Shown: positions 1,219 through 25,800 of the stretch, piece by piece
Layout of the letters: each line of letters opens with the position of its first letter
How positions within the stretch are numbered: position 1 is the stretch's first letter
Assembly: GCA_036172245.1 (NCBI GenBank)
Contig: JAYWIR010000074.1
Coordinates: forward strand, 372,001-399,261
DNA length: 27,261 bases
From: Raillietiella orientalis
Taxonomy: Eukaryota
Direction of reading: 5' to 3'
Position numbers and translations under genes: made by a program
The notes under the pieces: model-generated
Seen by the model: the letters and a program-made list of their open reading frames with translations, nothing else
What the model was told of the DNA's origin: nothing
Database searches by the model: none

Positions 1219-1357
1219 ACTGCCGAGGAGAGCCACACCGGGCTGCGTCCCGGTGTCACGGCAGTTCCGGTATTGCGTGGCCGTCAGTGGGGCCTTGTAC
1301 CACGTTCTGTATTGACCGTTGAAATGTTTTTAATAAACGTCCCGGCGTATCCGGGTG
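1219..1357 (+). promoter_or_regulatory. Family-A 3' UTR structured element: nested stem-loop plus terminal AATAAA/hairpin
   Basis: ACTGCCG(1219-1225)/CGGCAGT(1259-1265) encloses ACACCGGG-ctgcgt-CCCGGTGT(1235-1256). Homologous structures at 6593-6717 and 21484-21610. Confidence 0.7.
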
Positions 1358-1374
1358 GCATCGCCGAATCCCTT
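1358..1374 (-). other. 17-bp target-site remnant between E1 and E2 (antisense of K-G-F-G-D-A codons)
   Basis: GCATCGCCGAATCCCTT; the reverse complement reads AAG GGA TTC GGC GAT GC. Same register as the flanks at 6718 and 21611. Confidence 0.7.
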
Positions 1375-1468
1375 GGCGAGTGGACGTGTGTTTCCTTCGC
1401 TCCCGAGTGAGTCGACAGGAAGCGGTTTTTTTCTATTGTTGTTTTGTGTGGAACATCGTTGGTGTCCG

Positions 1469-3222
1469 ATGGCAGCGATGCCTGCGGACACAACGATGGA
1501 GGTAGGTGTGGGGGAGGCTTGCCCACCCCCACAGCCTACAGAATCAGGGGCGTCCGCCCCGGAATCGCCCTCGCCGCTCAAGGCGAGGAGCTGGAGCGCC
1601 ATGGTGGCCGCGCCGAGCGCGGAAACCATGGCCGAGATGGCGGCCTACCGGGCAGCTGGGTACAAGCCCAGCTTGGTTTACCAGGTAGGCAATCTCTTTG
1701 ACGGGCGAACTGTACGCGCTTTTTCGAAAGCGCTGCAGAACGCAAACGTGTTGGAAAAGGACCTTGACGGTCTATCCGTGCTAAGCGGGGGTCAGCGCGT
1801 TGAGGTTGTCTGCAAGGACATCACCTTGGCGCAAAGCTTGATAACCACCCCGCTGAACGTGGACGGACGCAAGATCCTACCAGTCACGATGGACCGCTCC
1901 GTAGTGGTCCATCTGACAGGGATCACCAGCCGCATGACGCGGTCTGCGGTTGGTGATCAGTTAAGAAAGTACGGGGATGTTCACGCGCCTTGGCCAAAGG
2001 CCACAATCTTCGATGGCTTCGATAGCCTTTTCGGAGGGCAGGCCGCCGCGCGCGTGACCGTGAAGGAGAGTGGGCTTCCCCACAAACTAGAGGTCAATGG
2101 CGAAGTCGTAGACCTCTGGTACGTGGGGAAACTCCGCTTTTGTGGCTACTGCAATGCAGTAGGACACTTGCGCAAGCGGTGCCCGAACATTGTGTGCCAC
2201 TTATGCGGGGAGAAGGGCCACGTACGCCGCGTATGCCCTAAACGCCCCAATCCGGTGCCGCCTGCTGCAAAGAAAGCACAGGCAAAACGCGGTAAACTGG
2301 TCGAAAGACCAAAAAGAGATACTGGCCGGCAGCAGCCGCTAGCCCCTCTCCCTCCCACACAGGCGTCGGAAGAAAAACCCTCCGAAAACGCGGGAGTCCA
2401 AGACGGCTGGCAGCTGGTCAAGGCCAGGAAGGAAAAAAAGGTGCCCCCCGCGGAACCCGCGAAAGCGGTAAAAAAGACAGCCGGCAAGGCGAAAAAACCT
2501 GGGCCGCGCTCTAAGACCATGCGGGAGTGTACGGTAGCACTGGAGCGCATAGCCGTTCCCGAGATTGCCACCCGGGGCGACGAGCCTTCCCTCGCCGTTT
2601 CCGCCGCGCCCGAGGTTGGCGACGGCGAACCCTCTGTTTACACAGAGGGTGAGCCGCGCGACGCGCCGGTCGACACTGCGGACGCCGGGTTCACAAAGGC
2701 GGCGGAGGAGCTCGCGGCCACGCTGGCGGAGCGTGAGAACCCCTCACGCAAGGCCGTGCGAAGGCCGGCTCCCGCGAAAAAGGCCCCCACAGGTGAGTCG
2801 GACCTGGGGGCCGGAAGTGCATCCTCCTCCTCGGAGGCACCCCCAGGAAGTCGGGACGCAAGTCCCAGAAACCCAGGAGGCGCCTCCCCTCCACCAGCGA
2901 GGAGGAGAAGCAGGAAGGTAGCGGTAGCGTGGGAATCCCGGAGGGGGAACTCCCACGCTCGGAAGCCGTCGAGCCGGCCACCCCCATGGAGGAGTGTGAG
3001 CAGGGGGGCGAAGTCCTCCCTGCAGTCGCCGAGCCTGAACAGCCCGCCCCCATGGATGAGGGCCAACAGGTAGGCGCGACCCCACTTAAGGGTGACCCCC
3101 TCGACGCGCCGTTACCCATGGAGGAGGGGGACCAGGTGCACGCAGCGCCTGACCCTCCTCCTCCACCTAGCGTCCCGCCCCAACAGGTGGCGGACGCCGC
3201 ATCGCCATCTTCCCAGGAATAA
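1469..3222 (+). CDS. E2 ORF1, gag-like nucleic-acid-binding protein with two CCHC knuckles; probable frameshift near 2850-2920
   Basis: CGYCNAVGHLRKRC and CHLCGEKGHVRRVC. First ATG after the 5' end is at 1469. The C-terminus matching other copies (..SSQE*) lies in ORF 2929..3222. Confidence 0.85.
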
Positions 3223-6200
3223 CACCTGGGCTCGCCAGTCACCGTCGGATTCGCGCCGCCTGTTGGAACGTCAACGGGCTGCGCGACGACGGTAACAGGC
3301 GAGATACGGCCGACACCCTGCGTGAGCTCGACCTGGCCCTGCTGCAGGAGATCCACGTGATCACCGCGGCAGACGCCCAGGAGATCGAGACGATCGCGGG
3401 GGGTCGGCTGTATTGGCGGTGCTGCCTCCGCAACACCTGCGGGGTCGCGTTCTTCGTGAAGCCGGCCATCGACGCGGCCGTGAAGGGCGTGCGCTTCGAT
3501 GACGACGGTCGGGTCGGTCAGCTGATTCTCAGCTGGTCCGACTCGATCGAATTGATCGTCACGAATGTGTACGCCCCTAGCGGTAAACAGGGATACAGCG
3601 ACCGTACGAGGCTGCTGGATTCCATGATGCCCGACTGGCTGGCGGGGGACTGGACGCGACTCTCAGGTGCGAAGGAATACCTTCGCGAATACCTGAGAGG
3701 TGTCACGCTCCGGAATCTCCAGGACTGGGACCTTTTTAAGGAATCGGTCCGCGAGTTCTGTGAGCAGTTCCCCCTGGATCGCCTGCCCCCCGGATTCGGC
3801 GAGGGTGCTTGCAACCATCGGGCCTATTTACAGGCTCGTAGGTACGAGAGAACCCCTAATGTCCGTCGCCTGGCCGAGTACCGCGCCGGGGCCGAACGCC
3901 AAGCCTGGCAATCCGGGTCGGCCAGATTGCTGGACGACCAGGGCCGGGAATGTTCGTCCCCGGCGTCGGTACGGCATCTCGTGCGGAGTTTCTATTCCTC
4001 CCTTTACGCCAGGGAGCCCCCGGATCGAAACGCCTCTCGGCGCTTGCTTCCGGATGGCACCCCGGCAATAGGGGAGGAAGAGATGGAAAGCCTCGACGAG
4101 CCTTTTACCACCGGCGAAATTCTCGCCGGTATCAAAAGGCTCAAGAAACGTAAAGCTCCAGGGGAAGACGGCTTGCCCGCGGAGTTCTTTCAGAGCTTCG
4201 CGGAAGAGCTGGCACCCCTGCTGCTTAAGCTGATCAGGCTGATCCGAGACGAAGGCGATGTTCCCGCCTCGTTTCGGTCAGCCAGAGTGAGGCTCCTGCC
4301 GAAAGGGGGAGACCTCAGGGATTTAAAGAACTGGCGTCCGATCACGATCGTGAATACGGACGCCAAGTTGATCGCAGGGCTATGGGCTTCGCGTCTGGGG
4401 CAGGTGGCAGAATCCGTGATTTGCCCGGAGCAGACTTATGCTGTTCCCGGGCGAAGTATGGATGCCAACCTCTTCTTCGCAAGCACATGGGTGCACATGC
4501 AGAGAAGAGAGAAGAAAGGGATAGGGAAAGTCGGCAACCCCACATTGGGGCCGCCAGCCGGGCTGGGAAGGGACCCCCGGGCGGGGAAAGGGGCCCTAGC
4601 GCTCGCAGTCGATCTCCACAAGGCGTTCGACTGTGTAGACCAGGAACTTCTCTTGGAGCTCCTGGGTCGCATGGGCTTCCCACCCTCCCTGATTTCCTAC
4701 CTGCGCTCTTGCTGGCGGAATGCGATAATTACCGTCTATTTCAGCGGTCAAAAGGTGTATGGCGTGCCGGTGCGGCGGGGCATAAGGCAGGGAGGTAGCC
4801 TCAGCCCCCTGCTCTTCAGCACCTACTTTGAGTTGGTGCTGAGAGCGCACAGGGTGACTTTGGCCCCCTTGCCGAGCTCGTGCCCCGGCACGCCCGCCGT
4901 AGCAGCGTACGCCGACGATCTTCTGCTTTTGTTGCCAATGTCCACCCCGGCAAAGGCGGTCGGAGACTTCTTCGATCTGCTCAGCCGCGGGACCGGACTG
5001 CAGGTTAACAGGGTGAAGTCGTCGGTTGTGCCAATAGGTGCGGCGTGGGCAGGGCAGCAGGACTGGGTCCGTCTGGGGATCCCCACGGCGAGGTGCTTCA
5101 AGTACCTTGGTGTGCCGTTGGGGGACTACTCCCCTGCGGAAGCGTGGTCCAGCTGCCTCCAAAAAGTCGAGACGGCGATCGGCCCGTTCCTGGAAGGCGA
5201 GTTTCACTTGCCGGAACGGGCCGCGGTTTGGAACGCCTCCGCGGCCCCCATCCTCCGCCCCTTGCTTTTTGTTTGCCCCCCCACCGTGGAATCCAAGAAG
5301 AGGAAGAAGGACCTCCTCCGTATCGCCCTTTGGGGCAAGGGGAGGCCCCGAGTCCCACTGAAGGACTTGTGCGCTCTGCGTCGGGACGGCGGTCTTGGCC
5401 TCCTGACGCTGGAGCGCGTGGAGAAGCAGCTGCGGTGGCGAACCCTCGCCATCGCAGCGAAGATGTGGAGCACCCCTTGGTGCACTCCGGCCCGCCTCCT
5501 GGCCAGCCGTGTGTCGCGGTGCGATGGACTCGCGTCTTTTCTTCTGAGCCGTGGCCGGAAGATGCGAAGATGCGGCCTACTGCTCGGGCGCATGGCAACA
5601 TTGGCCAAGGAGAACAGCTGGATGGTTTGCTGCCCCGCGAACTCCCCCGCCTGGCTGGAGGAGAATATTGGAACGTGGGCAGTAGTCAACCAGAGAAGCC
5701 ACGATACGTGGAATCGTCTCCGATGCAGCTTCTACGCCCGCTGCACGCTGCGGAATCTCCTGGAGAGTCCAGCAAGATGCACGTGGGCAGAGACGACCTG
5801 CCTAGCTACGGCGCTACCCTTCCTAAGGAGGGCACTTCACAGCACTCGGACGCCAAGGTGGCAAGTCTCCTGCTGCATCGAGGGACGGGAGAAGTTGATC
5901 AGCGGCTGGACAACAGGAGAACTGGCCGACGCCTCGACCCCGAGCGTCCAGCCGCGAGGATTGTTAAGATGGGGCGAGCTGCTCGCCATCCTCAGGGATG
6001 AGCTGAAGTGGCCCCCGGTGATGAAAGAATCCAGGATCCTGCCCCTCAAGTGGCAAGATTCGGCGTTGCTTTTGTTGCACTGGGGTCTACCCTGCAACGC
6101 GCGTTTCTTCCACTGGACGAGGGGAGATGTGGATCCTGCGTGTGCCAGGTGCGGGGAGCGGGAGTCGCTTCCCCAGCTTATTGTGGATTGTGCTGCCCTC

Positions 6201-6515
6201 CGACCCCTCTGGGAACGGTTCGGGGCGACCCTAGTGCTCCCTACGGGCAGCACCCCCAGAGACGTTCTTCGGCCCCTCTTCGTGAAGGACGCACTGAAGC
6301 CAGCCGCAGCCATCGCAGCCTTGTGCTGCGTCCGTGGCATCGTGGGGGCATGGAGCGACGCCAACAACGAAGGAGTGGGTCCACAGGCGAGGGACGTCAT
6401 CCCGTATGCGAAACGCTTCTTGCAAAGAGCTGCCGGATGGCCACAACTGGGGAATATGCAGGCTGACCTCGAGGGCTTCGTTCGACGGATGGGCCCTCCC
6501 CACAGCGACCAGTGA
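3219..6515 (+). CDS. E2 ORF2: APE endonuclease (C-terminal half deleted), reverse transcriptase and CCHC-like domain
   Basis: CWNVNGL, LLQEIH, NVYAP; KAPGEDG, WRPIT, DLHKAFD, GIRQGGSLSP, YADD, YLG. The frame is open from ATA at 3219, upstream of the ORF-track start at 3357. Confidence 0.93.
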   Translation: MTPGLASHRRIRAACWNVNGLRDDGNRRDTADTLRELDLALLQEIHVITAADAQEIETIAGGRLYWRCCLRNTCGVAFFVKPAIDAAVKGVRFDDDGRVGQLILSWSDSIELIVTNVYAPSGKQGYSDRTRLLDSMMPDWLAGDWTRLSGAKEYLREYLRGVTLRNLQDWDLFKESVREFCEQFPLDRLPPGFGEGACNHRAYLQARRYERTPNVRRLAEYRAGAERQAWQSGSARLLDDQGRECSSPASVRHLVRSFYSSLYAREPPDRNASRRLLPDGTPAIGEEEMESLDEPFTTGEILAGIKRLKKRKAPGEDGLPAEFFQSFAEELAPLLLKLIRLIRDEGDVPASFRSARVRLLPKGGDLRDLKNWRPITIVNTDAKLIAGLWASRLGQVAESVICPEQTYAVPGRSMDANLFFASTWVHMQRREKKGIGKVGNPTLGPPAGLGRDPRAGKGALALAVDLHKAFDCVDQELLLELLGRMGFPPSLISYLRSCWRNAIITVYFSGQKVYGVPVRRGIRQGGSLSPLLFSTYFELVLRAHRVTLAPLPSSCPGTPAVAAYADDLLLLLPMSTPAKAVGDFFDLLSRGTGLQVNRVKSSVVPIGAAWAGQQDWVRLGIPTARCFKYLGVPLGDYSPAEAWSSCLQKVETAIGPFLEGEFHLPERAAVWNASAAPILRPLLFVCPPTVESKKRKKDLLRIALWGKGRPRVPLKDLCALRRDGGLGLLTLERVEKQLRWRTLAIAAKMWSTPWCTPARLLASRVSRCDGLASFLLSRGRKMRRCGLLLGRMATLAKENSWMVCCPANSPAWLEENIGTWAVVNQRSHDTWNRLRCSFYARCTLRNLLESPARCTWAETTCLATALPFLRRALHSTRTPRWQVSCCIEGREKLISGWTTGELADASTPSVQPRGLLRWGELLAILRDELKWPPVMKESRILPLKWQDSALLLLHWGLPCNARFFHWTRGDVDPACARCGERESLPQLIVDCAALRPLWERFGATLVLPTGSTPRDVLRPLFVKDALKPAAAIAALCCVRGIVGAWSDANNEGVGPQARDVIPYAKRFLQRAAGWPQLGNMQADLEGFVRRMGPPHSDQ

Positions 6516-6717
6516 TCCCTTCCCTGCCCTCCAACTTCTTTTTGTTTGTTTCTTTTTTATTTTACTTTTTGTCTCATCCCCATCCCCCTTCGCTGTCGGG
6601 GAGTGCCACGCCGGGCTGCGTCCCGGTGTCCCGACAGGTCCTGTGTTTACGGCCGTGGTAAGGCCTTGTACCACGCATGTAAAGTTTATTAATACACGCC
6701 CGGGGCGTACCCGGGTG

Positions 6718-7616
6718 ACAACGCCGAAACCTGGAGGGAGACGGTTCAGGGGAAACTGGTCGCAGAACTCGCGGACTGAGCTCTTCAAGTCGTCCCAGTC
6801 CGCGAGCGACTGCAGATGGAAGCCTTGCAGGAACGAGCGAAAATGTTGCGCTGCTCCTGCGAGGCGCAACCAGTCCCCTGGCAAACGCCACGCTGTGGAG
6901 GGTGGACCTCTACCGCGCGGGTGTATTTCTAGCACGAGCCGGGGATGGTCGGAAAGTTCGGATAGCACTGCCCCTCGATTTCCCACCCGCGAACACAGGT
7001 GGTTGTCGAGGAACATGTGGTCGATCCTCGTTTCCGTCCCGGCGTCACCGGCCAACAAGTTGCGCGCGTGCATGGCAGCGCACATCTCGTTGACCAGCTG
7101 TGCGCGAATGTCGGGCGCACCTGCCAGCAGGCGGACGTTAAAGTCTTCGGCAATGAGGTGCGCCTTTCGCATGTCTGCTTCGGCCAGCCAATCTCGCCGC
7201 AGGCCTTCGAAGAACGCAGTGCGTTCCCCGCGCCTGTGGCTCGTGCCGGGCGCGTACACGTTGGTCACGACGAGGACGATCGCGTCGGACCACTTGGCAA
7301 CAAGCTGCCCGATTTGACCTTCCCCGTCGAAGTGCACGTCGCGCAGCGCATTAACGACGGCTGGCTTCAGCATGAAAGCCACACCGCGGGTGCGGTCTCT
7401 CCCGGTTTGGTATACGAGCCGCCCGCCTGCGATCCGTTCGATTTCCTGGGCCTCCCCTGCGTGGAGCACGTGCGTCTCCTGCAGAAGCGCCAGGTCGAAG
7501 TCCCGCAGGCTGGCGGCCACTTCTCTCCTCTTGCCGTCGTCGCGCAACCCGTTGACGTTCCAACAGATTACGCGCAGTCGCCGGCAGGAGGAGAGTCCAC
7601 GTGTTGGTGTGTTTAT
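6718..7616 (-). pseudogene. E3 ORF2 APE endonuclease domain, truncated
   Basis: ORF 6231..7547 up to PPGFGVV. The remainder of that ORF is antisense read-through into E2. Confidence 0.88.
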
Positions 7617-9021
7617 TGTGCTTGCTTACCGTCCTCCGCCTGCTGTTCAGCAGGCGGGAGTTGTGTATCCATTGCGACGGGCTGTTGCTCGCAAGGAGGC
7701 GGTCCGTCGGTGGTTGTGGTGGTGGTTGGAGGATCCTGCTTGGCCAGGGACGTCTCCGGCAAGGAGTCGCGAGACCTCGCGGACATCGCCTCCCCGTCGT
7801 CGTGGTCCGACCGCATTTCCTCCTCCGCCGGTGGAGGTGCGGAGCGCCGCGGGTTGCCTACCTTGCGGCCCGCTTTGCGCTTCGGGAGAGCGACAGCCGG
7901 AGCCTTGCCGGCTTCGGCTTCGGACTCGGAAGTCTCCGGTCCTTTCGCCTCAGCCGGACGCCTCAAGGCCTTTTTCTGGGCCTTGGGAGGCTGCTGGAGC
8001 ATGGCTGCCAACTCTTCCGCCGCCTTGTTGAAGTCCCGGTCGTCGCTGCTCACGCTGGGCTCGCGACTTTCTCGCGGCGTCGGCGTTCGCGCGTCGGCGG
8101 CTTGAACAGCTGGCGTGACGTCACATCGCATCGATCCGTCAGCGGAGCGAGTATCGATCGCCGGCACGCGTTTGATGGCCACGCTGCACGCTTTGATTGT
8201 TGGGCGTGGCGCGACCTTCCCCTTGCCCTTCACCACTTTCGCCGGTGCGGGCGCGGTTTTTTTAACGATTTTTACTTTACGGGTGACCAGCTGCCAGCCT
8301 TTCTCGTCGGCAGTCTTTTCTGGGAGCTCCTGTACCGAGTCCCTTTCCTGCTGCGCGACTTTTGTCGGAGCCGACGGCTGATCCCCTTTTGTGGGGTTTA
8401 TTACTATTTTTGCCTTCCCTTCCTTCTTTTGCGGAAGTTCCGGCGTTGAAACGACGTTCATGGGGCACACCACTTTGGTGTGGCCCTTCGCGCCGCACGT
8501 TGGGCAAACCGCGTCCGGGCACCGCTTTTTCAAATGCCCGAACTACTTGCAGTTTCCACAAAATTTAGGTTTCCCCACAAACCAAATGTCGACGAACTCG
8601 TCGCCAATTTGGAGCTTGTGGGGAAGCTGTACGCTTTCTCGAAGCGTCACGCGCGCGCCTACTCGCCCACTAAATGCACCGTTCACTCCGAAGGTGTTGG
8701 GCTTTCTCCACATCGCGAAAACGCTTGCGTATTTTTCCAGTTCAACGCGGATGGCGTTCTCATCCATCCGCACTGTTGTCCCTGTTAGGTGGACCACATT
8801 GGTGTGGTCCACCGTGTGTGGGAGTAAATTCCTGCCCTCAAATTGTACGGGCGTGCAGAGCATCTTGTGGGTAAGAGCTGCATCCTTGCAGATGAGCTCC
8901 GCCATCTGCCCTCCGCTCCGTATAGAGAGGCAAAGAATTTCATGGTCGGCAATGCCCATCTTTTTGATGGCATTGCCGAACTTTCGCGCCCTTAACGAAG
9001 AATATAAATTTCCTACCTTGT
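7613..9021 (-). pseudogene. E3 ORF1 (5'-truncated, disrupted near 8540)
   Basis: ORFs 8543..9268 (3' part) and 7613..8533 together give ORF1 with zinc knuckles. Confidence 0.85.
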
Positions 9022-10700: not shown

Positions 10701-10748
10701 CGACAGCCGGAGCGTTGCCGGAGGGCTCCGGCTGTCGCTCTCCCGAAG
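10700..10748. repeat. Junction filler with a perfect 14-bp inverted repeat, matching E3 ORF1 sequence
   Basis: GCGACAGCCGGAGC(10700-10713)/GCTCCGGCTGTCGC(10725-10738). Matches about 7880-7911 in both orientations. Confidence 0.85.
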
Positions 10749-13472
10749 TTGCGTCCGCCGTGCACCGCGCAGTCAAGCGGTACTACTCGTCCTTGTACGC
10801 GGAAAAGCCCACGGAACGCAGTCTCTCCGATCTGCTTCTTACAACGGGCAACCCTGCTATCGACGAGGAGGAACGCGCCAGATTGGATTGGCGCTTCACG
10901 GCGGAAGAAGTATCATCTGCCATAGCGGGCCTGAAGATGCGTAAGGCGCCTGGGGAGGATGACCTGCCCGCGGAGTACTTTCAGTGCTTCGCGGCGGAGC
11001 TCGTCCCCTTGGTGCTAAGCCTTTCCTCGCTGATACGTGAGACGGGAGATGTTCCTGCTTCTTTCCGCTCAGCAAAGGTGCGGCTCCTGCCGGAAGGCGG
11101 TGATTTGCGCCACCTCCGCAACTGGCGTCCGATCACCTTGGTGAATTTGGAAGTCAAGTTGTTCTCCAGGGTATGGGTCGCGCGCCTAGGGAGAATCGCA
11201 GAGTCCTTGGTAAGTCCGGAGCAAACGTATGCTGTTCCGGGTTGTTCCATGGACGCGAATCTCTTCTTCGCGCGAACATGGTTCGAGCTGCAGCAGCGCG
11301 TGGCGCAGCAGAGCCAGGCAGCCGAAATCGCCGCAGTCAAAGGTGAGCGGCGGTGTTCAAGGCACGATCGATCGCCGGGAGCCTTAGCGGTCGCCGTCGA
11401 TCTCTGCGAAGCGTTCGACAGCGTAAACCAGGACCTCCTTCTGGAGCTTCTGGGACGCCTAGGCCTCCCGACGCATCTCATCGCCTACTTGCGCTCCTGC
11501 TGGCGATACGCGTTACGCTGTATCTCTTTCAGCGGGCGCCACGTATACGGCATTCTTATACGGCGGGGTATCAGGCAGGTAGACAGCTTAAGCCCCCTGC
11601 TCTTCAGCACCTCCTTTGAGTTGATGCTGAGGGCGTACAGGCTAACGCTGGCTACCCTGCCGAGCTCCTGCCCGGGAACCCCGGCCGTGGCCGCCTATGC
11701 TGACGACCTTCTCCTGCTGCTGCCCACGTCCACCCCGGCATCCAGGCTAGAGGACTTCTTCGAGCTAATTCGTCGGGGAGCGGGCCTGAGCGTCAACAGG
11801 ACGAAATCAACCGTTGTACCGATTGGCTCTACGTGGAAGGGGCAGTCCGACTGGATCCGCCTGGGGATTCCCACGGCCAGGTGCTTGAAGTACCTTGGCG
11901 TTCCCTTGTGCGCCTTCTGTCCAGCAGAAGCGTGGTCGGACTGCCTTCACAAGGACGAGACTGCTCTGGGCCCGTTCCAGGGCGGCAGGTTTCTCCTGTT
12001 GGAACGGGCCTTCGTGTGGAACATTTTCGTTTCCCCCCTCCTCCGTCCCCTCTTTTTTGTTTGTCCCCCTCCCTACTCGGCTAAGCGCCGGGCGCAACGC
12101 CTGTTGCGTAACGCCCTGTGGGGACCGGCGAGGTCCAGGATACACCTGAAGAACTTGGCGGCTCCTCGGCGTGAAGCAGGCTTGGGCATCTTGACGCTGG
12201 AGCGGATCGGACTGCTAGTGCAGTTCCGCATGCTGGCACTTTGTGCGCAGCTCTGCACTGCTCGCTGGTGTGCTCCAGCGCGGCTGCTGCTGCGGCACTG
12301 CACGGGTGGCGACGGTCTACGTTCGTTGCATCTGCGCACGGAGCGCGCCCAGAGAGGATTCGGCTTCCCTTTGAAGCAGCTCGCCACGCTTCTGGGAAAG
12401 CATGAGTGGATCTCCTGCCGGCCCACGAACTTCAACGCCTGAAGGCCGGAAGCCTTATCGTGCTAAGCAGCGCAGCAGGATGTGTCCCGTTTGGAACTCC
12501 GTTGCGTGAAACTTTCCCCATACTCTCCAGTGGGGGAGGTGCTGGAAGACCAGGATCAGTGGACACGCCTAGCCGCTACGCCAATCGCCAAAGCACTGTG
12601 TGCACTGATGGTGCGAGATGACAGTGATCTGCCGGCGAGGTGGGAGATCACTTGCGAAATCGCAAGCGAAACCCGACTGCTGGGTGCCTGGCGGACTTGC
12701 AAAGTGGCAGACGCTGCCACACCTTGCATTCTTGCAAAGCGGCTTCTCCAGTGGAGTGAGCTCCTCGGGGTGCCCAGCGATGAACTTGTGGTCCCTTCTG
12801 CGTGTTTGGACGCGACTCTCTTCCCCCTTCGCTGGATACAGGACGCTTTTCTGCTGATGCATTGAGGTTTGTACTGCAACTAGCAGGCGCACCTGATTTC
12901 CGGAAGAGTTGCTTCCCCGAACTGTGCCCAATGCGGAACGGTGGAATCGCTTACGCATTTGCTGCTTGAGTGCGGTGCCCTCCAGGATCTGTGGCGGCGG
13001 CTGTCTTTAGCGCTCCTGCACCCCGGACACACCGCACTGGATTGGATGCGCCGCTTCTACACGCGTGTCGGACTTTCTGTTGGAGCGGTCGTCGCAATCA
13101 TCTGCTGCGTCTGCGCCATTGTCAGGGCCCACCACGTATTGCAGATGCGAGCAGTTCCAACATCGGTCCCCGACACCGCAGCATGCAACCTGTAAATGGC
13201 TGCCGGGTGGCCACATCTTGGAGCAGAAGTGAGGATGGAGATCGTCGGCATTCACCGCCGGTTCTGAGAAGAGGAACGGTTAGACTGTATACCCCTGTGT
13301 CCGCCCTCCCAACCAATTTATTTATTCATTGTCCCACCTCCTCCCGTTCCAAACTCTCAGTGTGCTTGGACTGCGTTCCGAGAAATCCACTCCCCATTTT
13401 CTGTTCCCCTTGCCTGGGAACACAGTTCCCAGTTGATGTTATAATAAACGTCCCGGCGCAACCGGGTAATAA
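10749..13472 (+). mobile_element. E5: 5'-truncated family-B element (RT, CCHC, 3' UTR), with stop codons in the C-terminal part
   Basis: ORF 10658..12442 (WRPIT, DLCEAFD, YADD, YLG), then CAQCGTVESLTHLLLEC and IHRRF* at about 13267. Terminal AATAAA-CGT-CCCGG-CGCAA-CCGGG-TAATAA at 13443-13472. Confidence 0.93.
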
Positions 13473-14680
13473 ACGACAACGCTGCATTCTTTAATTGGCT
13501 CGCTTGCCTGCTGTTTTTTCTGGCGGTATGCGAGCTTTTTCTCCATCCTCCTCTCCTTCTTTGATTTTTTGGCCGTAGCCACCTGGCACCCAGGCTCCTG
13601 GCTTGTTCCCTCCACTTAATCGGCGTTGTTCGCCGGGGTCTCGGGTGAGGCCTGGGTCTTGGGCGCGGGTGGCACAGCAATTGCGGCAGCTTTTGCCGCC
13701 AGCCTTTTCTGCAGAAGCCGGGCGCGTTTTTTAAGGTTTCTCTTGGAAACCACCAGCAGTGCCTCTTTTGAGCACACCTTCCTCGTGTGACCCATTGTGC
13801 CGCATACTTGGCACTGCTCGTTGGGACTCCTCTTTTTGAGGTGGCCCGACGTATTGCAGAAGCCACAGTATTTCGGCTTCCCCACATACCAGAGGTCGAC
13901 GGTTTCGCCTCCGACCTTCAGTTTGTGGGGAAGAGTGCAGCCCTCCCGAAAGGTCACGCGCGCAGACGTAAGGCCGTGTTTGAGCCCCGTGTAGTCCTCG
14001 AAGGGACTAATTTTCGTCCACTGCGCGTGGATCATTTCATATTCTTCCAACACGGCGCGAACCTGTTCCTTGCGCATCCGCGCGTTAACACCCAACAGGT
14101 GGACCACCAAGCTGCGGTCCTCCGTAATAGGGAAGAGCCAGCGCGTCCCCATCACCACGGAAGTTTTAAGCAGTCGTTCCGCCAGCTCTGCTTGTTTGCA
14201 GATGACCTCAACGTACTGACCCCCGCTGCGGATGGTCATAGCGCTGAGATCCTCCTCTTTCACGCTCTTTCACATCGAGAGCGCGCATGCCCTTCGAGAA
14301 GGTGCGCGCGCTCTCTAAAGAATATAAATTGCCTACGTTGTAGAACAATGAGGGGTTGTAACGCTCCTCTACTTAGGCCGACAATTCCGCTGCGGCTGCA
14401 GGCGATGGCGACGAGACAACGGCGCTCCACGCCCGCGCTGCAGCGGGGACAGATTCTGTGGGGGCACATGCCCCCACCTCCATCGCCCCGGGGGGTGACG
14501 TTGCCGCCGCCTCCTAGCTCTCCATCGCCTCTGAAGGCGGCGTTTCCGCTGCCCTTTGGCCATCCCTGGTAATCGCGTCAGGCATCGCTGCCTGATCGAC
14601 CACCGAACCACACGACGCTTGCACTGGGGGAGACTTCCTGGCACGAGGAACACCGAGAAAACACGTCAACCCTGGAGCAC
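13473..14680 (-). mobile_element. E6: family-C element, intact 5' end and frameshifted ORF1; cut at the ORF1 IKECSVV motif by E5
   Basis: 5' end GTGCTCCAGGG, ATG at 14585, CGFCNTSGH and CQVCGTMGHTRKVC. Closely similar to E8 about 19240-20353. Confidence 0.92.
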
Positions 14681-16731
14681 GCAAGGCGTTCGATTGCGTA
14701 AATCAGGATCTCCTGCTGAAGCTCCTAAAACGTCTCTGTCTAACGGTGCACTTCGTAACGTATTTGCGCGCTTGCTGGCGCCACTGGCTCATTTCCATCT
14801 TTTTAACGGCTAACACGTGTACGGCGTGCCGGTGCGGCGGGGCATTAGGCAGGGCAACTGCTTAAGCCCGTTGCTCTTCAGCATCTTCTTTGAGATGGTG
14901 CTGTGGGCGTACAGGATGACGCTGGCCAACCTGCCCAGCCTTTCTCCAGGAACGCCGTCCGTGTCGGCCTATGCTGACGACCTGCATTTCCTCGTACCCA
15001 TGAGCACCCTGGCGTCCAGTCTCGAGGATTTCTTCTAGCTGATTCGCCGGAGAGCGAGCACGAGCGCAAACCGGAGGAAGAGCGTGGTCGTACCTATTAA
15101 TGCGGCGTGGTAGGGGCAGTCCGACTGGATCCGCCTGGGGATCCCTACCGCTCCGTCCACCCAATATCTGGGCGTTCCGCTGGGAAACATCAGCCCAGTG
15201 GAAGTGTGGTCGGACTGCCTTCGGAAGGCTACGAGTGCGCTGAGCCCGTTCCAGCATGGCAAGTTCCTCCTGTCGGAGCAAGTCGCGATATGGAACACCT
15301 TCGTTGCCCCCCTCTTGCGCCCCCTGTTTTTGGTTTGCCCGCCCCCCTACTCGGTAAAGCTCCAGTTGCACAGCCTATTGAATAACGCTCCGTGGGGACC
15401 TTCGAGGTCCAGCATACGCCTCAAACACTTGGAGGCGCCGCGTAGGGATGCTGGTTTGGGCATCCTGACGCTGGACAGAATCGAGCTGCAGGTGCAGCTT
15501 TGAATGTTGGCCATGTGCGCCAACCTTTGGTCCACTCCGTGGTGCGCTCCCGCGCGACCGCTTCTGCGGCGCTGCATAAGCAGCGATGGACTTCTGTCGC
15601 TGCAGCCGCACACGGAGCACCCCACGACAAGTTTCGGTTTACCCTTGAAACCCCTCTACCTGCTCCTGGCAGCCCAGGAATGGATCTCCTGCCGCCCAAC
15701 GAACTTTCAAGCTTGGCGGCAGGAACCGTTGTATGGCTGGGCAAAGCAGCATGATGTTTTCCTCCTGGAACTTCGTTGCGCTAACCTGTCCCCGTATTGC
15801 ACGTTGGACGAGGTGTGCAACAGCCAGGAGAAGTGGGCCCGCCTGGCCGTCAGGCCGCTCGCCGACGCACTGTCAGCCCTCAGGGCAAGAGATGATAGCC
15901 TCGATCCGACGACATGGGAGGTCGCCTGCACCATTGCAGGAGCAACACGACCTATCAGCGTTTGGAGGATTTGCGAGCTGTCAGACGCCGCCACGCCTCG
16001 CCTCATCTAGAAGGGACTCCTTCCGTAGACCGAACACTTCAGTGTGCCCCCCGAAGAACTTGTAGTCCCTTTCTCCTGTTTGAGCACTTCGGTGTTCCCC
16101 CTTTTGTGGAGGCAGGTCGTCATCATGCTGGTGCATTGGGGTTTTCACTGCAACCAGCGGACGAACCGTGTTTCCGAAGGAGTTGTCTCCCCAAACTGTA
16201 AGCGGTGCGGGAAAGTGGAAACTCTCCCGCACCTGCTCCTGGACTGCGGTGCCCTTCCAGCACTCTGGCGGAGGCTGGTCTGAGGTCTCCTGCACCAGGA
16301 AGACACCGCGAGGGACTTGATACGCCGCTTCTTTAAGCCAGGCAGCCTTTCTTTGGGTGCTGTCGTTGCAACTGTGTGTTGCCCCCGCGCCATCAACAAG
16401 GCCCACCGAGAGTTGAAGAAGCTGGCCATCCTTCGTCAGTCCACCAGATTAGCCAGCAGAAACATGTCGTCGGCTGCCGAATGGGCCCATCTGCTACAGG
16501 GCGTTAGGAGAGAGATCGACGGCATCCATCGCCTGTCCCCCGCCTTTCATATTTTTCTTTTATTTTTTTATAGTAGTGTATTTCTGGTCCCTTTCCTCCC
16601 GTTCCGGACTTTCGGCATACCGACCTACGTGTCGGGGTTACAACCTTCTTCCTCTCTTGTTTTCCCCTTTGTCCAGGAACCCTGTTCCCCGATAGTTTAC
16701 AATAAACGCCCTGGCGCAACTGGGTGATAAA
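14681..16731 (+). mobile_element. E7: degenerate family-B ORF2 3' half starting at RT motif KAFDCV, with intact 3' terminus
   Basis: KAFDCVNQDLLL, YGVPVRRGIRQG, AYADD, CKRCGKVETLPHLLLDC; many stops. Terminal AATAAA-CGC-CCTGG-CGCAA-CTGGG-TGATAAA at 16701-16731. Confidence 0.92.
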
Positions 16732-20258: not shown

Positions 20259-20353
20259 CGCTGCCTGATCGACCACCGAACCACACGACGCTTGCACTGG
20301 GAGAGACTCCCTGGCACGAGGAGCAACGAGAAAACAAGGCCTCCCTGGAGCAC

Positions 20354-21610
20354 AGAAGGGGTTCGACTGCGTGGAGAAGGAGCTACTGTAGGAGCTTCTG
20401 GGTCTCATGGGCTTCCCACCCTCTCTTTCCTCCTACCTCCGTACTTGCTGGCGGAATGCGTTGATCAAGGTCTCTTTCAGCGGACAACGTACGGCCTGCC
20501 GGTGCCGCGGGGCATACGGCAGGGCGATAGTCTGATTCCCCTGCTCTTCAGCACCTACCTTGAGATGGTGCTGAGAGCGTACAGGGTGTCTTTGGCTGGC
20601 TTGCCTAGCTCGTGCCCAGGCACGCCCGAAGTAGCTGCGTACGCCGACGATCTTCTGCTGATGTTGCCCCTGTTCGCCCCGGCAGTCGCAGTCGAGAATT
20701 TCTTCGATCTGCTAAGCCGTGGGACTGGGTTGCAGGTTAACAAGGAGAAGTCGTCGGTGGTACCGTTCGTTGCGACGTGGGATGGACGCCCTGACTGCAT
20801 CCGCATAAGAATCTCCACAGTCAGGTACCTGAAGTACCTAAGTGTCCCGTTGGGAAATTCTGCCTCGCAGAAGTCTGTTAAGGTCGCCTCCAAAAGGTAG
20901 AGATTGCATTATCAATCGGATCCAGGCTTCTCCCGCTTAAGAGGCAAGAGTGGGCACTGCTGCTGTTGCACAGGGGTTTACACTCCAACGCGCGCCGCTT
21001 CCTCTGTACGCGAGGAAGTGTAAGCTTTGAGTGTGCCAAGTGTGGGGAGCAAGAATCGCTTTCATATTTTCTAGTCGACTGTGCTGCCATCCGACCCCTG
21101 TGGTTACGGTTCGGGACGAACCTAGGGCTCGCAATGGGCAGCGCGCCCAGACACGTTCTTCGGCCCCTCTTCGTGCGGGACGCTCTGCCGTTTGCCGCAG
21201 CCTTCGCAGCTCTCTGCTGCATCCGGGGCATCGTGGCGGCCTGGAGCGACATTTGCGACGAAGGAGTGGATGCCAACGAGAGGGAAGTCATCCCGTATGC
21301 TGTGAGCTTCATGCGAAGAGCTGCAAGATGGCTCCATCTGGGACAAACGCAGAAGGACCTAGAGGGCATACTGCGAAGGATGGGCCCTCCTCCTAGTGGA
21401 TAGTGATCCCTTCTCCTCCCTCCAAACTCCTTTAGTTTTTCTTTATTTTATTTTTTTTTGTTTCCTCCCAAAGTCCCATCCACTGCCGAGGAGCGTGATG
21501 CCGAGCTCCGTCCCGGCGTCCCGGCATGTCCGGTATTGTGCGGCCGTTATTGAGGCCTCGTACTACGTATTTGTGGAGTTTATTAATAAAAGCCCAAGCT
21601 TACCCGGGTG
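20354..21610 (+). mobile_element. E9: degenerate family-A-like ORF2 3' part starting at RT motif KGFDCV, with an internal deletion near 20915 and an intact 3' UTR
   Basis: KGFDCVEKELL*ELLGLMGFPP, GIRQGD, YADD, CAKCGEQES, RRMGPPPSG*. The UTR is homologous to E1/E2 and ends CCGGGTG at 21610. Confidence 0.9.
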
Positions 21611-21709
21611 GAAACACCAAATCCCCGGTTCAGGCGGTGCACAGGGACCTCCTCGGAGAACTCGCGGACCGAGGCCTTCATGCGGTCCCAGTCTTGGAGA
21701 CTGCAGAGC
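21611..21709 (-). mobile_element. E10: 99-bp ORF2 remnant (post-APE region), host of both E9 and E11
   Basis: Reverse complement translates LCSLQDWDRMKASVREFSEEVPVHRLNRGFGV, homologous to E2 LRNLQDWDLFKESVREFCEQFPLDRLPPGFGE. Not in the ORF track. Confidence 0.88.
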
Positions 21710-22800
21710 GGCGAGCGGACGTGTCTTTTCGTTGCTCCTGAGTTTCATTTCCTTTGGTGCTTGTGCGTGGTGTGGGTGGAGGATTAGGCAGAAATGCCTA
21801 ATTCCACCACCGGTGAGGATCCGGGGGCGATGACCTCATTGCCCCCGGAGCAGATGGAGGTAAGGGCTCCCGCATCAGTGGAGGCTCCCGCCAGCACGGA
21901 TGCGCCCCCGGCCCTACCCAGGGCTTGGAACGCCGTGGCTGCGGCACCTACGCCAGCGGCTATGGCGGAAATGCGCGCTTACCTGGAGGAGAGGTATAAC
22001 CCACCCCTTCTATATAAGGTAGGTGGTCTATATAAGGTCTGCTGCGTCGTTGTAGAGCGGATTCCCGCCATCGACGAATGCGGCGCTAAAGAACTCCCTG
22101 CTGCCCCTGCTCAACCCTCCGTTGACAAAGTCAACAAGGAGGGGAGCGAGGCGGCGGCGTCCGTCATCGAGCCCACGCTCGATGACGTCGCCTTCGAGCG
22201 CGCCGCGGAGGAGCTGGCTGCCTCGCTGCAGCCGGTTGCCCCCAAGGCTGGCAAGAAGGCCGTCAGGCGTCCGGCTTCCCCTCAGGAGTCGGCCACTTCC
22301 GACCCCAAGGTGAAGGCCGGAAACACAGCATTCATCTTCGCGGCCCCCCGCAAAAAGGCAGGACGAAGGTCCACAATGCCCCGGAAGATCGTCTCCCCCG
22401 ACGAAGAGGAAGAGATGGCTTCCGGTAGCGAGGGTGCCATGAGCGTGGGAAACTCCCTGGACCCGTCGCCCGAGAGAATTCCACGCTCGGACACGCAGGG
22501 GATGGTGAGGATGGAGGCCGAACAGGTACCCCAGCGCCTGAAGAGGCCTCCGTCCTCGTTCCGATGGTCCTCGTACCGATGGACCTTTCCAACACCTGCC
22601 CCGGGGCAGGTGCCGCGACGCCACTTTCCCAGCCATAATGCCGGGAATCGCCTCTCGCCGTCGTCTTCTGATCGCCTGTTGGAACGTGAACGGGCTAAGC
22701 GACGAAGGCAAGAGGCGTGACGTGGCCGCCACCCTGGCATCCTTCGACCTGGTGCTGCTGCAGGAGATCCACGTGATCTCCGCAGATCAAGCCCGGGAGA
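21710..22800 (+). mobile_element. E11: element with intact 5' end, internally deleted ORF1 (21794-22638) and the start of APE (22638-22800); cut by E12
   Basis: 5' end GGCGAGCGGACGTGT; MPNSTT..., AAEELAA; TAATG at 22636-22640; MPGIASRRRLLIACWNVNGL...LLQEIHVISADQAREI. Confidence 0.9.
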
Positions 22801-25800
22801 TTTCTCACCCGGTCACGCCGGGGCGTTTATTCCATATAACATAACCAAAAAAAGCAATTATACAAAATAAACCAGTTGGGAACCAAACTCCCAACCGACG
22901 ACTGAACAAGAATGAAGAGAATATTGCTGGCACGCAGGCCAGAGTAACAGTTTCCTGAACGGTGTGGGTGGGCGGGAAAAACAATGACACCAAAATAAAA
23001 TAAAAACAATGAATAAGGAGGACGGGATAAGGGTCTTTGGGATCGCTCTGGAAGACACGCGGATAAAAGCATGGGCACCGGAAATTTTACCGAGCGAACA
23101 AGACGAAGTATGAGTGGGCGAGAGGTCGCAGGGGTCACCGGATGAAGCCGTTCTCAAAGGTGTGTAAACCGGCGATGTATGCCGGAGATGTCCTCATTCA
23201 CATTGTCACGAAGATGAGACCACCTTGAAGCCATCTCCATCAATTGAGCTGCAAGCAGGTGAGCCTCCCTTCGCTGCGATGACAACTCCAGGGCGTATCG
23301 GGCCTTCACGATGGCGCGAACGGAACACATGGTTGCGACGATCGCGCCAACCGAAAGTCCATTTTTGCTGAAGAAGCGCCGCAGCACATCAATGGCAGTG
23401 CCTCCTTGTGGCATGATGGCGAAAGTGAGCCTTCGCCACAGTTCCCGGAGGTCACCGCAGTCCAGCAAAAGGTGCGGAAAAGACTCGATCTCTCCGCACC
23501 TTAAACAGTTTAGCAAAGCAGCTCCCCCGGAAACGATGCTTCGGTGCCTATTACAGTGAAATGCACAATGTAAAAAGAGCAGCACATCTTGTTTCCACTT
23601 AAGGGGGAACACGGAGCTGTCCAAACAAACGGGGGGAACCACTATCTCTCCGGGGGGCACACTTAAATGTTCGCTCCACCGAAGCAGTCCCTTCGCCCGA
23701 TTCCGAGGTGTGGCGGCTTGCACCAGCTCATTTGTCGTCCAGCTGCCGAGGAGCTTACTGACTCCCTCTATTTTGCAGGAGAGCTCCCATTCCGCCGGTA
23801 GGCAACCGTCGTTGCTTGTCCTGAGGGCAGACAGCGCTGCGGCGAGTGGTGTGGCGGCCAGACGATCCGACAACTTCTTGTCCTGCAAGTCTTCGTCCAT
23901 ATGATGACTGAGGAGAAGTCGCAGGCGTCGAAGATCTTCCAGGCGCGTTCCTTCGGAAGCTGCCCACGATGAAAAAGATTCCTGCCGCCATGCATTAATG
24001 TTCATGGGGCGGCAGGAGATCCAGCTTTGAACTTCCAGCAGTGAGGACAGCTGCCTCAGCGGGAAGCCAAACCCTATTCTGGTGTGCCGATAGTGCGGTA
24101 GCAAAGAAAGCAGTCCCTCGCTTCCCGTGCAGTGCCTCAGTATAAAGCGTGCGGGTAAGCACCACGGCGTACACCACAGCTTGGCACAGAGCCGCAGCAT
24201 GCGAAACTGCACCTGCAGTTCGATACTGTTTAAGTCGAGGATGCCCAAGCCTGCATCCTGACGCGGCGCCACCAAGTCTATAAGTGTAACACGGGATCTT
24301 GCAGCGTCCCACAACGCTTTGCGTAGAAGGCGCTGCGCCCAGACTTTGACTTCCTGTGGAAGTGGAAAAACAAAAAACAGGGGGTGGAAGAGGGGGGCAG
24401 CGAAGGTGTTCCAGATGCAGGCCCGTTCCCGCAAGACGAACTCGCCTCCTGAAAACGGGCCAAGTGCACGCTCTGCCTTCCGAATTCAGTCCGACCACGC
24501 TTCTGAGATGCACAAGTCGCCCAACGGCTCGCGAAAGTACCTGAGGTACCTGCCCGAGGGGATCCCCAGATCGATCCATTCGGACTGCCCCTCCCACGTC
24601 GCACCCACCGGAACAACCATACACTTACTCCTGTTAACGCTCACGCCCGCACCGCGACGAATCAACTCAAAGAAGTCTTCAAGCGATGTCGCCGGGGTGG
24701 ACATGGGCAACAGGAGAAGCAGGTCGTCGGCATAGGCTGCCACGGCCGGCGTACCTGGACAGGAGCTCGACAGGTTCGCTAGCGTCAGCCTGTAAGCCTC
24801 CAGCACCAATACAAAATAGGTGCTGAAGAGCAGTGGGCTCAAGCTGTCACCCTGCCTAATTCCTCGTCGTACCGGCACGCCGTACACGCGACAGCCACTG
24901 AAAACAAAGGATGTAATCGCGTGGCGCCAGCAGGAGCGCAAGTACGCCAACAGGGATGCCGGAAGACACAGACGTTCCAAAAGCTCAAGAAGAAGCTTTT
25001 GGTTCACGCAATCGAAAGCTTTGTGCAGATCGACTGCAACCGCCAAGGCTCCCGGTGTCTCCCTTTGCGTCCCGCGCCTCCGTCGGTGAGAGATCGAAGG
25101 AGTCGCTTCCGCACGACGATCCACCGCCACACAATGCTGCAATTGCAGCCATTTGCGGATGAACAAGAGGTTCGCGTCCATGGACCGCCCAGGAAAAGCG
25201 TACGTCTGCTCCGGACTTACCAAGGATTCCGCGATCCTACCCATCCGCGCCACCCAAAGTTTCGAGAACAACTTGAAGTCCGCATTCACTAATGTGATCG
25301 GACGCCAGTTGTTCAGTTGGCGCAAATCTCCGCCTTTCGGCAGTAGACGCACCTTCGCTCAGCGAAACGAGGCGGGGACCTCGCCCGAGTCTCGCATCAG
25401 CGACGAGAGTTGGAGCACCAGGGGGATGAGCTCCGCCGCAAAACACTGAAAGAATTCCGCGGGGAGCCCATCTTCGCCTGGCGCTTTTCGTCTCTTGAGC
25501 CCCGAGATGGCCGAGGAAATTTCCTCTGCCGTGAAGGGCTCATCAAGACGCGCGCGTTCCTTTTCGTATACAACAGGTGCATCAATCGGCAGAAGCAGCC
25601 GGGAAAGGCTGCGTTTCGTCGGTGCCTCTGCATACAGAGAAGAGTAATAGCGCCTGACTATCCGTCGCACGTCGGCTGGAGCCGAGCATTTCCTATCCTG
25701 GTCGTCGAGCAGAACTGTCGCCCTTGACTGCCAGACCTGGCGCTCGGCCTTGGCCTTGTACTCCGATAATCGACCAACGTCCGCGCGCCTGGTAAAGGAG

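What the first reader, a model, noticed from the sequence alone, without database searches (positions are those of the whole stretch)
1332..22831. No poly(A): all six 3' ends share an AATAAA plus GC-hairpin terminus across diverged families
Consensus AATAAA-N3-CCCGG-CGN3-CCGGG-TG, at 1332-1357, 6691-6717 (AATACA, 8-bp stem), 13443-13467, 16701-16726 (changes give G-U pairs), 21585-21610 (decayed) and 22831-22806 on the minus strand. The rest of the UTR is not alignable between families A and B. Family A ends at TG, while B-like copies add a short A-rich tail (TAATAA, TGATAAA, TGAGAAA). L1-clade elements typically end in poly(A). The motif may be the RT recognition or 3'-processing signal, and a shared one could permit cross-mobilisation.
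Basis: partly seen in the sequence, partly recalled or inferred. Interest (0 to 1): 0.7.

Follow-up and report, generated by a model that had tools for sequence, protein, structure and literature searches.

The report
Hairpin-ended LINE retrotransposons lacking poly(A)
A large group of L1-like jumping genes ends in one fixed 30-base signal (a poly(A) signal, a small GC hairpin, then five or six bases) with no A tail in the DNA, most likely because copying starts at a fixed point just behind the hairpin, an unusual version of a known way for such elements to recognise their own RNA.

Summary
Confirmed and extended. The six motifs are the 3' ends of the window's six L1-clade ORF2 copies, from four families. 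The genome holds 1,280 exact matches plus 179 and 285 of two variants (reversed-pattern controls 0). Copies picked by protein, not by motif, also end this way (30 of 30; 25 of 30), and only 7 places show six or more A's behind the hairpin. Target-site duplications (36 pairs, mostly 13-14 bp) put the end at hairpin-TGNNA(A) in all families, so 'A ends at TG, B adds a tail' is wrong. The stem is nearly invariant and does not covary. An upstream arm matches the AATAAA strand (G-C versus A-T), but that is one lineage-level change. Best reading (0.6): a normal polyadenylation signal ends the RNA, and the hairpin sets reverse transcription at the first one to three A's. Families with identical hairpins keep separate landing sites, so cross-mobilisation is not supported; no SINE was found. 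Stem-loop-ended and tail-less L1-clade elements are published, and this scan noted the motif before on other DNA of this genome. New variant of a known kind.

The parts
1332..1360 (+). 3' terminus 1 (family A, subfamily A1): AATAAA 1332-1337, hairpin 1341-1355, tail TGGCA 1356-1360; T-rich arm just upstream
   Evidence: end placed by analogy with L027, same subfamily, whose duplication starts after TGGCA
2..1132 (+). C-terminal part of ORF2 of copy 1 (runs off the window's left end)
1362..1371 (+). 5' copy of the 10-bp target duplication of copy 2 (differs at one base from the 3' copy)
1372..6721 (+). Near full-length family A copy 2: 5' UTR, ORF1 (1466-3073, zinc knuckle), ORF2 (3171-6515: endonuclease with an internal deletion of about 100 aa, RT, C-terminal zinc finger), 3' UTR
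6691..6721 (+). 3' terminus 2: AATACA (family consensus AATAAA), 6-bp-stem variant ending 6715, tail TGACAA
6722..6731 (+). 3' copy of the target duplication; antisense to the endonuclease-RT linker (profile position 294) of the host copy
6722..9019 (-). Host copy (ORF1 and endonuclease) interrupted by copies 1 and 2
10730..13472 (+). 5'-truncated copy 3 (third family); left end approximate
13443..13472 (+). 3' terminus 3: hairpin 13452-13466, tail TAATAA; flank antisense to ORF1 position 359 of a host copy, as in two other copies of this family
14677..16730 (+). 5'-truncated copy 4 (family B); left end approximate
16701..16730 (+). 3' terminus 4: hairpin 16710-16724 with two C-to-T changes, tail TGATAA; flank antisense to the RT of a host copy
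20353..21614 (+). Decayed, internally deleted family A copy 5; left end approximate
21585..21614 (+). 3' terminus 5: decayed hairpin 21594-21608, tail TGGAAA; lands at the same linker site (294) as copy 2
22802..22831 (-). 3' terminus 6 (family C): hairpin 22822-22808, tail TGAGAA; lands antisense at endonuclease position 53 of the host, as do 5 of 5 family members
22802..27261 (-). Copy 6: ORF2 in pieces (endonuclease 26720-25362, RT and C-terminus to 23154), 322-nt 3' UTR; 5' part runs off the window

Best explanation
The motif is the shared 3' end of one lineage of L1-clade non-LTR retrotransposons that has radiated into many families in this genome. Shown: copies insert with target duplications and 5' truncations, and end 5-6 nt behind a 5-bp (family A: 6-bp) GC hairpin, at TGNNA(A). 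Inferred step 1: TGTA and T-rich bases, then AATAAA, form an ordinary cleavage and polyadenylation signal, so the RNA is cut about 22 nt downstream, right after TGNN, and gets a poly(A) tail. Inferred step 2: ORF2p binds the hairpin, by sequence as well as shape, and this fixes where the nicked target primes, at the first one to three A's of the tail, so the rest of the tail is not copied. Inferred step 3: each family's own endonuclease picks the landing site and acts mostly on its own RNA. It works like a stringent-type LINE end; that the hairpin is required has not been tested.
For: End geometry: of 213 distinct ends, base 5 behind the hairpin is A in 208 and base 6 in 200; in 36 curated duplication pairs base 5 differs from the target copy in 32, base 6 in 24 (always to A), and base 7 matches in 34. 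The A run covering base 5 is 1-6 nt in 208 of 213, most often 2-3, as expected if priming wobbles within an A tail. Rare long tails exist: A11, A12 and A14 among the 7 places, and one family-B copy with A7 at the usual B landing site (L032). Signal context: TGTA lies within 45 nt upstream in 30 of 60 cluster representatives, against 14.4 shuffled and 8 further upstream; UGUA is bound by CFIm and AAUAAA-type elements lie 10-35 nt before the cut (PMC6413133 passages). Four of four host HSP70-family genes whose end I could find have AATAAA 10-84 nt after the stop. The hairpin sequence is kept across families whose ORF2 C-termini are 25-61% identical, apart from one near-identical pair (median 41%, 60 pairs), and whose UTRs do not align. 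Precedent: stem-loop binding by ORF2p in ZfL2 (PMC4176376); conserved hairpin ends in L1-clade families (PMC3472496).
Against: No transcript data were available, so neither the cut site nor the tail is observed. The GC stem shows no compensatory change (1 of 695 cells), so RNA folding is predicted, not shown. For three of the long-A copies (L033, L039, L041) no duplication was found within 1.5 kb and for L034 only an A-run self-match, so their A's are not proven to come from the element; slippage after insertion is possible. AATAAA can pair with an upstream arm (95 of 148 C-type ends against 39 shuffled), which would hide it from the processing machinery. The 30 nt behind the ends are T-poor (19%), with no U-rich downstream element. 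In SART1 and R7Ag a long poly(A) is needed and is copied into the DNA (PMC7265360), the opposite of what is proposed here.
Confidence: 0.6

Rival explanations
1. The RNA is not polyadenylated: it is cut 5-6 nt behind the hairpin (geometry like a histone mRNA end, recalled), AATAAA is mainly the 3' strand of a second helix with the upstream GTTT/ATTT arm, and the RT starts at the free end and adds or copies one or two A's.
For: Fixed 5-6-nt distance. Upstream arm enriched: GTTTAT in 24 of 78 representatives against 2.8 shuffled. The seventh signal base tracks the arm: C with G in 26 of 38 clusters, T with A in 7 of 8; genome-wide 933 GTTT against 276 ATTT matches for C-type, 46 against 284 for T-type.
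Against: The T-type ends belong to one clade (99/99), so this is one change; swapping the seventh base costs T-type ends nothing (29 against 29 of 61); 9 of 60 clusters have no T-run. TGTA enrichment, host use of AATAAA and rare long A runs fit polyadenylation. No Rfam family matches in the window.
Confidence: 0.17
2. The template is a read-through RNA that carries the donor's downstream target sequence and pairs with the nicked target, which gives precise tail-less junctions and hands the landing site on (as reported for some rDNA elements; recalled, and touched on in PMC7265360).
For: Families keep their own landing sites; copies sit in tandem, each followed by a short target copy; no downstream processing element; a few pairs differ at bases 7-10.
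Against: From base 7 on, the 3' duplication copy matches the 5' copy in 32-35 of 36 pairs at each position, also at off-site insertions, and all 24 differences at base 6 are to A; no donor flank was seen carried along.
Confidence: 0.12
3. Copies had poly(A) tails that were lost afterwards, or collapsed in the assembly.
For: Many copies are old and decayed.
Against: Copies with open 1,215-aa frames end the same way; the duplication abuts the 5-6-nt tail; long T runs in the same UTRs and A11-A14 runs elsewhere are kept.
Confidence: 0.03
4. The motif is a DNA-level palindrome: a target site or a separate small repeat, not part of the element RNA.
For: The palindrome is sequence-invariant and does not covary.
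Against: It lies inside the duplication, at a fixed distance behind ORF2, and the flanks are interrupted reading frames of other copies.
Confidence: 0.03

Closest known systems
Stringent L1-clade LINEs: monocot 1a group (LINE1-1_ZM) and Chlamydomonas L1-1_CR (PMC3472496, first third read; PMC3747384, passages)
   Same: L1 clade; a 3' end far better conserved than the body; predicted hairpin near the end.
   Different: There the stem varies with compensation and partner SINEs exist; L1-1_CR ends in poly(A). Here the stem is invariant, the loop varies, AATAAA is part of the module, there is no tail and no SINE was found.
L2-clade UnaL2, ZfL2-1, ZfL2-2 (PMC4176376, passages)
   Same: Short 3' stem-loop; general stem with family-specific loop, as the loop spectrum here suggests (20 loop sequences among 74 representatives with the 5-bp stem).
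   Different: Other clade; those end in short tandem repeats (UnaL2 TGTAA repeats, PMC3747384); binding is shown there, only inferred here. Here several families share one loop.
Target-specific Tx1-clade elements, e.g. Tx1 in Tx1D and crocodilian Tx1-Mar (PMC4494074, passages)
   Same: Endonuclease-RT-zinc-finger elements that prefer sites inside other mobile elements.
   Different: Here the targets are coding sites of sister families; Tx1 membership could not be tested without named references.
Zepp of Coccomyxa (PMC3446292, passages)
   Same: L1-type, GC-rich, clusters of nested copies.
   Different: Zepp ends in (A)n (PMC3472496 Table 1); here many families nest in each other and none has a tail.
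SART1 and R7Ag, R1 clade (PMC7265360, passages)
   Same: 3' UTR-dependent, precise start of reverse transcription; site-specific.
   Different: They need a long poly(A) and genomic SART1 copies keep about 20 A's.

Membership tests
L1-clade non-LTR retrotransposon (broad, with Tx1) | ORF2 with AP-like endonuclease, RT and C-terminal zinc finger, preceded by ORF1 | tested here: met
   Pfam RVT_1 7.4e-22, Exo_endo_phos 8.8e-6, ORF1 zf-CCHC 4.1e-5; zf-RVT hits are members of this group; best solved relative human L1 ORF2p, 1.3e-18
L1-clade non-LTR retrotransposon (broad, with Tx1) | Target-site duplications and 5' truncation | tested here: met
   36 curated pairs, 11-18 bp, inserts from 37 nt upward; about 10 bp for full-length family A copies
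L1-clade non-LTR retrotransposon (broad, with Tx1) | RT groups with L1-type sequences | tested here: inconclusive
   Six own RTs and one database protein form one long branch (support 100) among fish, cnidarian, fungal and plant hits of about 30% identity; no other clade was included as outgroup
Relaxed (mammalian-type) L1 | 3' poly(A) tract in genomic copies | tested here: not met
Tx1 clade | Phylogenetic placement with named Tx1 elements | not testable with these tools
   No named Tx1 reference among the hits
Tx1 clade | Target-sequence preference (over 20% of flanks in one repeat type, PMC4494074) | tested here: met
   Family C 5 of 5, family B 8 of 20, family A 23 of 77 at one position each (family A oversampled)
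Stringent-type LINE | Conserved 3' sequence able to form a stem-loop | tested here: met
   93.8% and 96.3% of cells paired, against 23-51% when slid
Stringent-type LINE | Compensatory changes in the stem | tested here: inconclusive
   None in the GC stem, which hardly varies; one lineage-level change in the upstream helix
Stringent-type LINE | 3' end required for retrotransposition and bound by ORF2p | not testable with these tools
   needs an assay
Stringent-type LINE | Partner SINE sharing the tail (common, not obligatory) | tested here: inconclusive
   29 of 213 ends lack ORF2 upstream; 14 of them are 37-284-nt inserts by their duplication, read as truncated copies; no tRNA in 12 loci scanned; the sample is a small part of the genome's ends
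Any Rfam family (histone 3' stem-loop included) | Match at the gathering score | tested here: not met
   0 matches in the window

The most novel reading that the evidence does not exclude
An L1-clade lineage whose RNA is polyadenylated but whose RT is placed, by an invariant hairpin set between AAUAAA and the cut site, at the very base of the tail, so that the tail is left out of nearly every insertion; the upstream arm that can pair with AAUAAA would switch the RNA between a processing-competent and an RT-competent fold. One 30-nt module would then serve many families that each keep their own landing site inside sister elements.
Probability: 0.3. Interest if true: 0.65.

Novelty: new variant of a known kind. 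Interest (0 to 1): 0.42.

Why it matters
It is a natural case between the two textbook modes of LINE RNA recognition: an L1-clade enzyme that seems to ignore the poly(A) tail on which mammalian L1 depends. That bears on Ohshima's proposal that stringent recognition was ancestral in the L1 clade (PMC3472496). A 30-nt end that gives junctions precise to one or two bases, with many natural families that target different short sites, is a compact and directly testable system. It is not a new class of element: hairpin ends, tail-less L1-clade families and nesting are each in print.

Tried and rejected
RNA evidence: no RNA holder listed, so no reads were laid. Other organisms: the motif matched 36 metagenome stretches, none with a hit to the element profiles; most look like bacterial two-way terminators. 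Only one database protein is close (73%, unnamed; next 32%). Covariation of the GC stem: none; the G-U pairs seen are scattered single changes, 29 of 47 being C-to-T or G-to-A. A second, independent switch of the upstream pair in L255 was rejected, because the model places that copy's own end elsewhere. An early idea of a C-every-third-base target preference for the whole group was only weakly visible in pooled targets and was replaced by family-specific sites. Read-through templating: tested on 36 pairs, little support. SINE search: nothing. Of 50 candidate duplications I dropped 14: 3 were the end of a preceding tandem copy, 6 had more than one distal mismatch, 5 matched inside the element or away from a 5' end. 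Literature: searches showed no paper describing an AAUAAA-hairpin, tail-less L1-clade end; the library lacks most subscription papers, the R1Bm 3'-end paper was not held, Repbase was not available, and the supplements of PMC3472496, which list the tail-less families, were not read. The host organism was not identified.
Full report
Observation. A search with up to three mismatches finds these six and nothing else; shuffles give 0.55 on average and never six. The window is a nest of non-LTR retrotransposon pieces with exactly six ORF2 C-termini, each followed by one motif. ORF2 has an AP-like endonuclease and an RT, ORF1 a zinc knuckle; the best solved relative is human L1 ORF2p. The UTRs at 1332, 6691 and 21585 align at 73-78%; the other three align neither with these nor with each other, and the ORF2 C-termini of the two groups are 31-40% identical. 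So the window shows four families.

Genome-wide. The strict pattern has 1,280 matches in 210 Mb, a 6-bp-stem variant 179, a variant with AATAAAT and a CA loop 285; reversed-pattern controls are 0. A looser pattern gave 2,000, a round number that may be a cap. To avoid picking copies by the motif I also picked them by protein. All 30 best loci for the family A C-terminus (one is the window's own copy) carry the motif 187-203 nt downstream and none has eight A's within 420 nt. Of the 30 best loci for the generic zinc-finger family PF13966, 25 carry it with at most four errors, one shows a decayed form by eye, two show none and two only a doubtful match; four pairs look like duplicates of one insertion. 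The 5-bp hairpin with a CG loop is followed by six or more A's at only 7 places; that pattern does not cover the two variants.

Where the element ends. Among 213 distinct ends, base 1 behind the hairpin is T in 210, base 2 G in 193, base 5 A in 208, base 6 A in 200. Of 50 candidate target duplications I kept 36 (reasons for the 14 drops under Tried and rejected). They are 11-18 bp, 22 of them 13-14 bp. Base 5 differs from the upstream target copy in 32, base 6 in 24, always to A, and base 7 matches in 34. Four full-length family A copies with both host flanks show the same with a duplication of about 10 bp (L198, L199, L218, L224).

Structure. The GC stem pairs in 93.8% of cells in 32 ends (the six window ends and 26 cluster representatives that I chose) and 96.3% in 25 distinct model matches from the zinc-finger loci, but no pair changes on both sides and shuffles do as well. 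The stem is conserved as sequence across families whose ORF2 C-termini have a median identity of 41% (RT cores 58-76%), while the loop takes 20 forms. That points to sequence-specific binding but leaves the fold unproven. I tested it: GTTTAT is enriched (24 of 78 against 2.8), and the seventh signal base tracks the base before the T run (C with G in 26 of 38 clusters, T with A in 7 of 8; genome-wide 933:276 against 46:284 matches, several per site possible). Against it: the T-type ends form one clade, so this is one event; predicted pairing is weak for T-type ends (29 of 61 against 19 shuffled) and indifferent to the base in question. The second helix is possible, not shown.

Mechanism. AATAAA ends 22-24 nt before the element end, inside the 10-35-nt range given for such signals, and TGTA, the CFIm motif (PMC6413133, passages), is enriched upstream (30 of 60 against 14.4). 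Four host HSP70-family genes have AATAAA 10, 15, 84 and 14 nt after the stop (six loci, five genes, one without a recognisable end). The last one or two bases of the inserts are A's that do not come from the target, their number wobbles, and a few copies carry 7-14 A's. The simplest account is a polyadenylated RNA on which reverse transcription starts at the base of the tail, placed by the hairpin. Junction geometry is shown; polyadenylation, hairpin binding and the start point are inferred. No RNA run was listed. An unpolyadenylated cut end (0.17) and read-through pairing (0.12) remain open.

Cross-mobilisation. Families land at their own sites: C 5 of 5 antisense at endonuclease position 53, B 8 of 20 at 61-62, A 23 of 77 at linker position 294 with 19 more followed by the next copy's 5' end, another family 7 of 8 at sense 152 (possibly one old insertion carried along). 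Of 233 ends, 90 have a flank that matches an element profile, 59 antisense and 31 sense; family A was oversampled. Several families share the identical hairpin and loop yet share no landing site, so the shared end does not make them interchangeable in the genome's record. One locus (L015) has a family A UTR joined to a family B end at B's site; it may come from template switching or recombination at the shared motif. No SINE was found.

Comparison with what is known. Ohshima (PMC3472496, first third of the text; PMC3747384, passages) reports L1-clade families with a conserved 3' hairpin and lists 9 of 233 plant and 5 of 15 green-algal L1 families without any 3' repeat. ORF2p binding to a 3' stem-loop is shown for ZfL2 (PMC4176376, passages). 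Tx1-clade elements target other mobile elements (PMC4494074, passages); Zepp forms nested clusters (PMC3446292, passages) but ends in (A)n; SART1 needs and keeps a poly(A) (PMC7265360, passages). It works like a stringent-type LINE end. It fails the poly(A) test for relaxed L1; its place within the L1/Tx1 group is unresolved, since its RTs form one long branch with no named neighbour. My ten searches showed no description of this exact arrangement, within the limits of the library. The histone-like geometry and rDNA read-through pairing are recalled, not taken from a call.

Verdict. Real, genome-wide and mechanistically suggestive; a new variant of a known kind. This scan reported the same terminus and the antisense nesting earlier on other DNA of this genome; those notes are not independent evidence. 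Interest 0.42.

Noticed in passing
window 6722, 13473, 16731, 21615, 22801: Five of the six copies sit antisense inside reading frames of sister copies; 6722 and 21615 are the same linker site, and each family reuses its own site across the genome.
   Followed up: partly
window 1362-1371 and 6722-6731; L225, L228: In full-length family A copies the 5' duplication copy differs from the 3' copy by the same A-to-T change in three cases; the element's 5' end may carry target-like bases from its donor site.
   Followed up: partly
L293 (G000:C20:2925850-2926600, minus strand): Four 3' termini in tandem with a 62-nt period; each unit is a short target copy plus about 54 nt of the element end, starting just above the T-rich arm.
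   Followed up: no
L015:1471-1530: Family A 3' UTR joined to a family B terminus at family B's landing site, followed by a truncated B copy.
   Followed up: partly
L120, L126, L130 and related loci: A subfamily of family A with tail TGTAA lands at a different site, which reads as the sense strand of another family's ORF1 region (compare window 22241-22280), so nesting is not always antisense.
   Followed up: no
window 3639-3644: Copy 2 keeps an open 1,114-aa frame although about 100 aa of the endonuclease are deleted in frame; intact relatives have 1,215 aa.
   Followed up: no
window 9019: An ORF1 piece joins a family A RT piece on the minus strand with no terminus or duplication: a deletion or recombination junction.
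   Followed up: no
L004, L013, L047, L088, L094, L096: A family with tail TGTCA repeatedly lands in one unidentified repeated sequence that matches none of my three element profiles.
   Followed up: no
L268-L271: Host HSP70-family genes are AT-rich with short introns and AATAAA soon after the stop, in contrast to the elements at about 60% G+C.
   Followed up: partly
P0001: One unnamed database protein of 619 aa is 73% identical to the family A RT and falls inside this group; all other hits are near 30%.
   Followed up: partly
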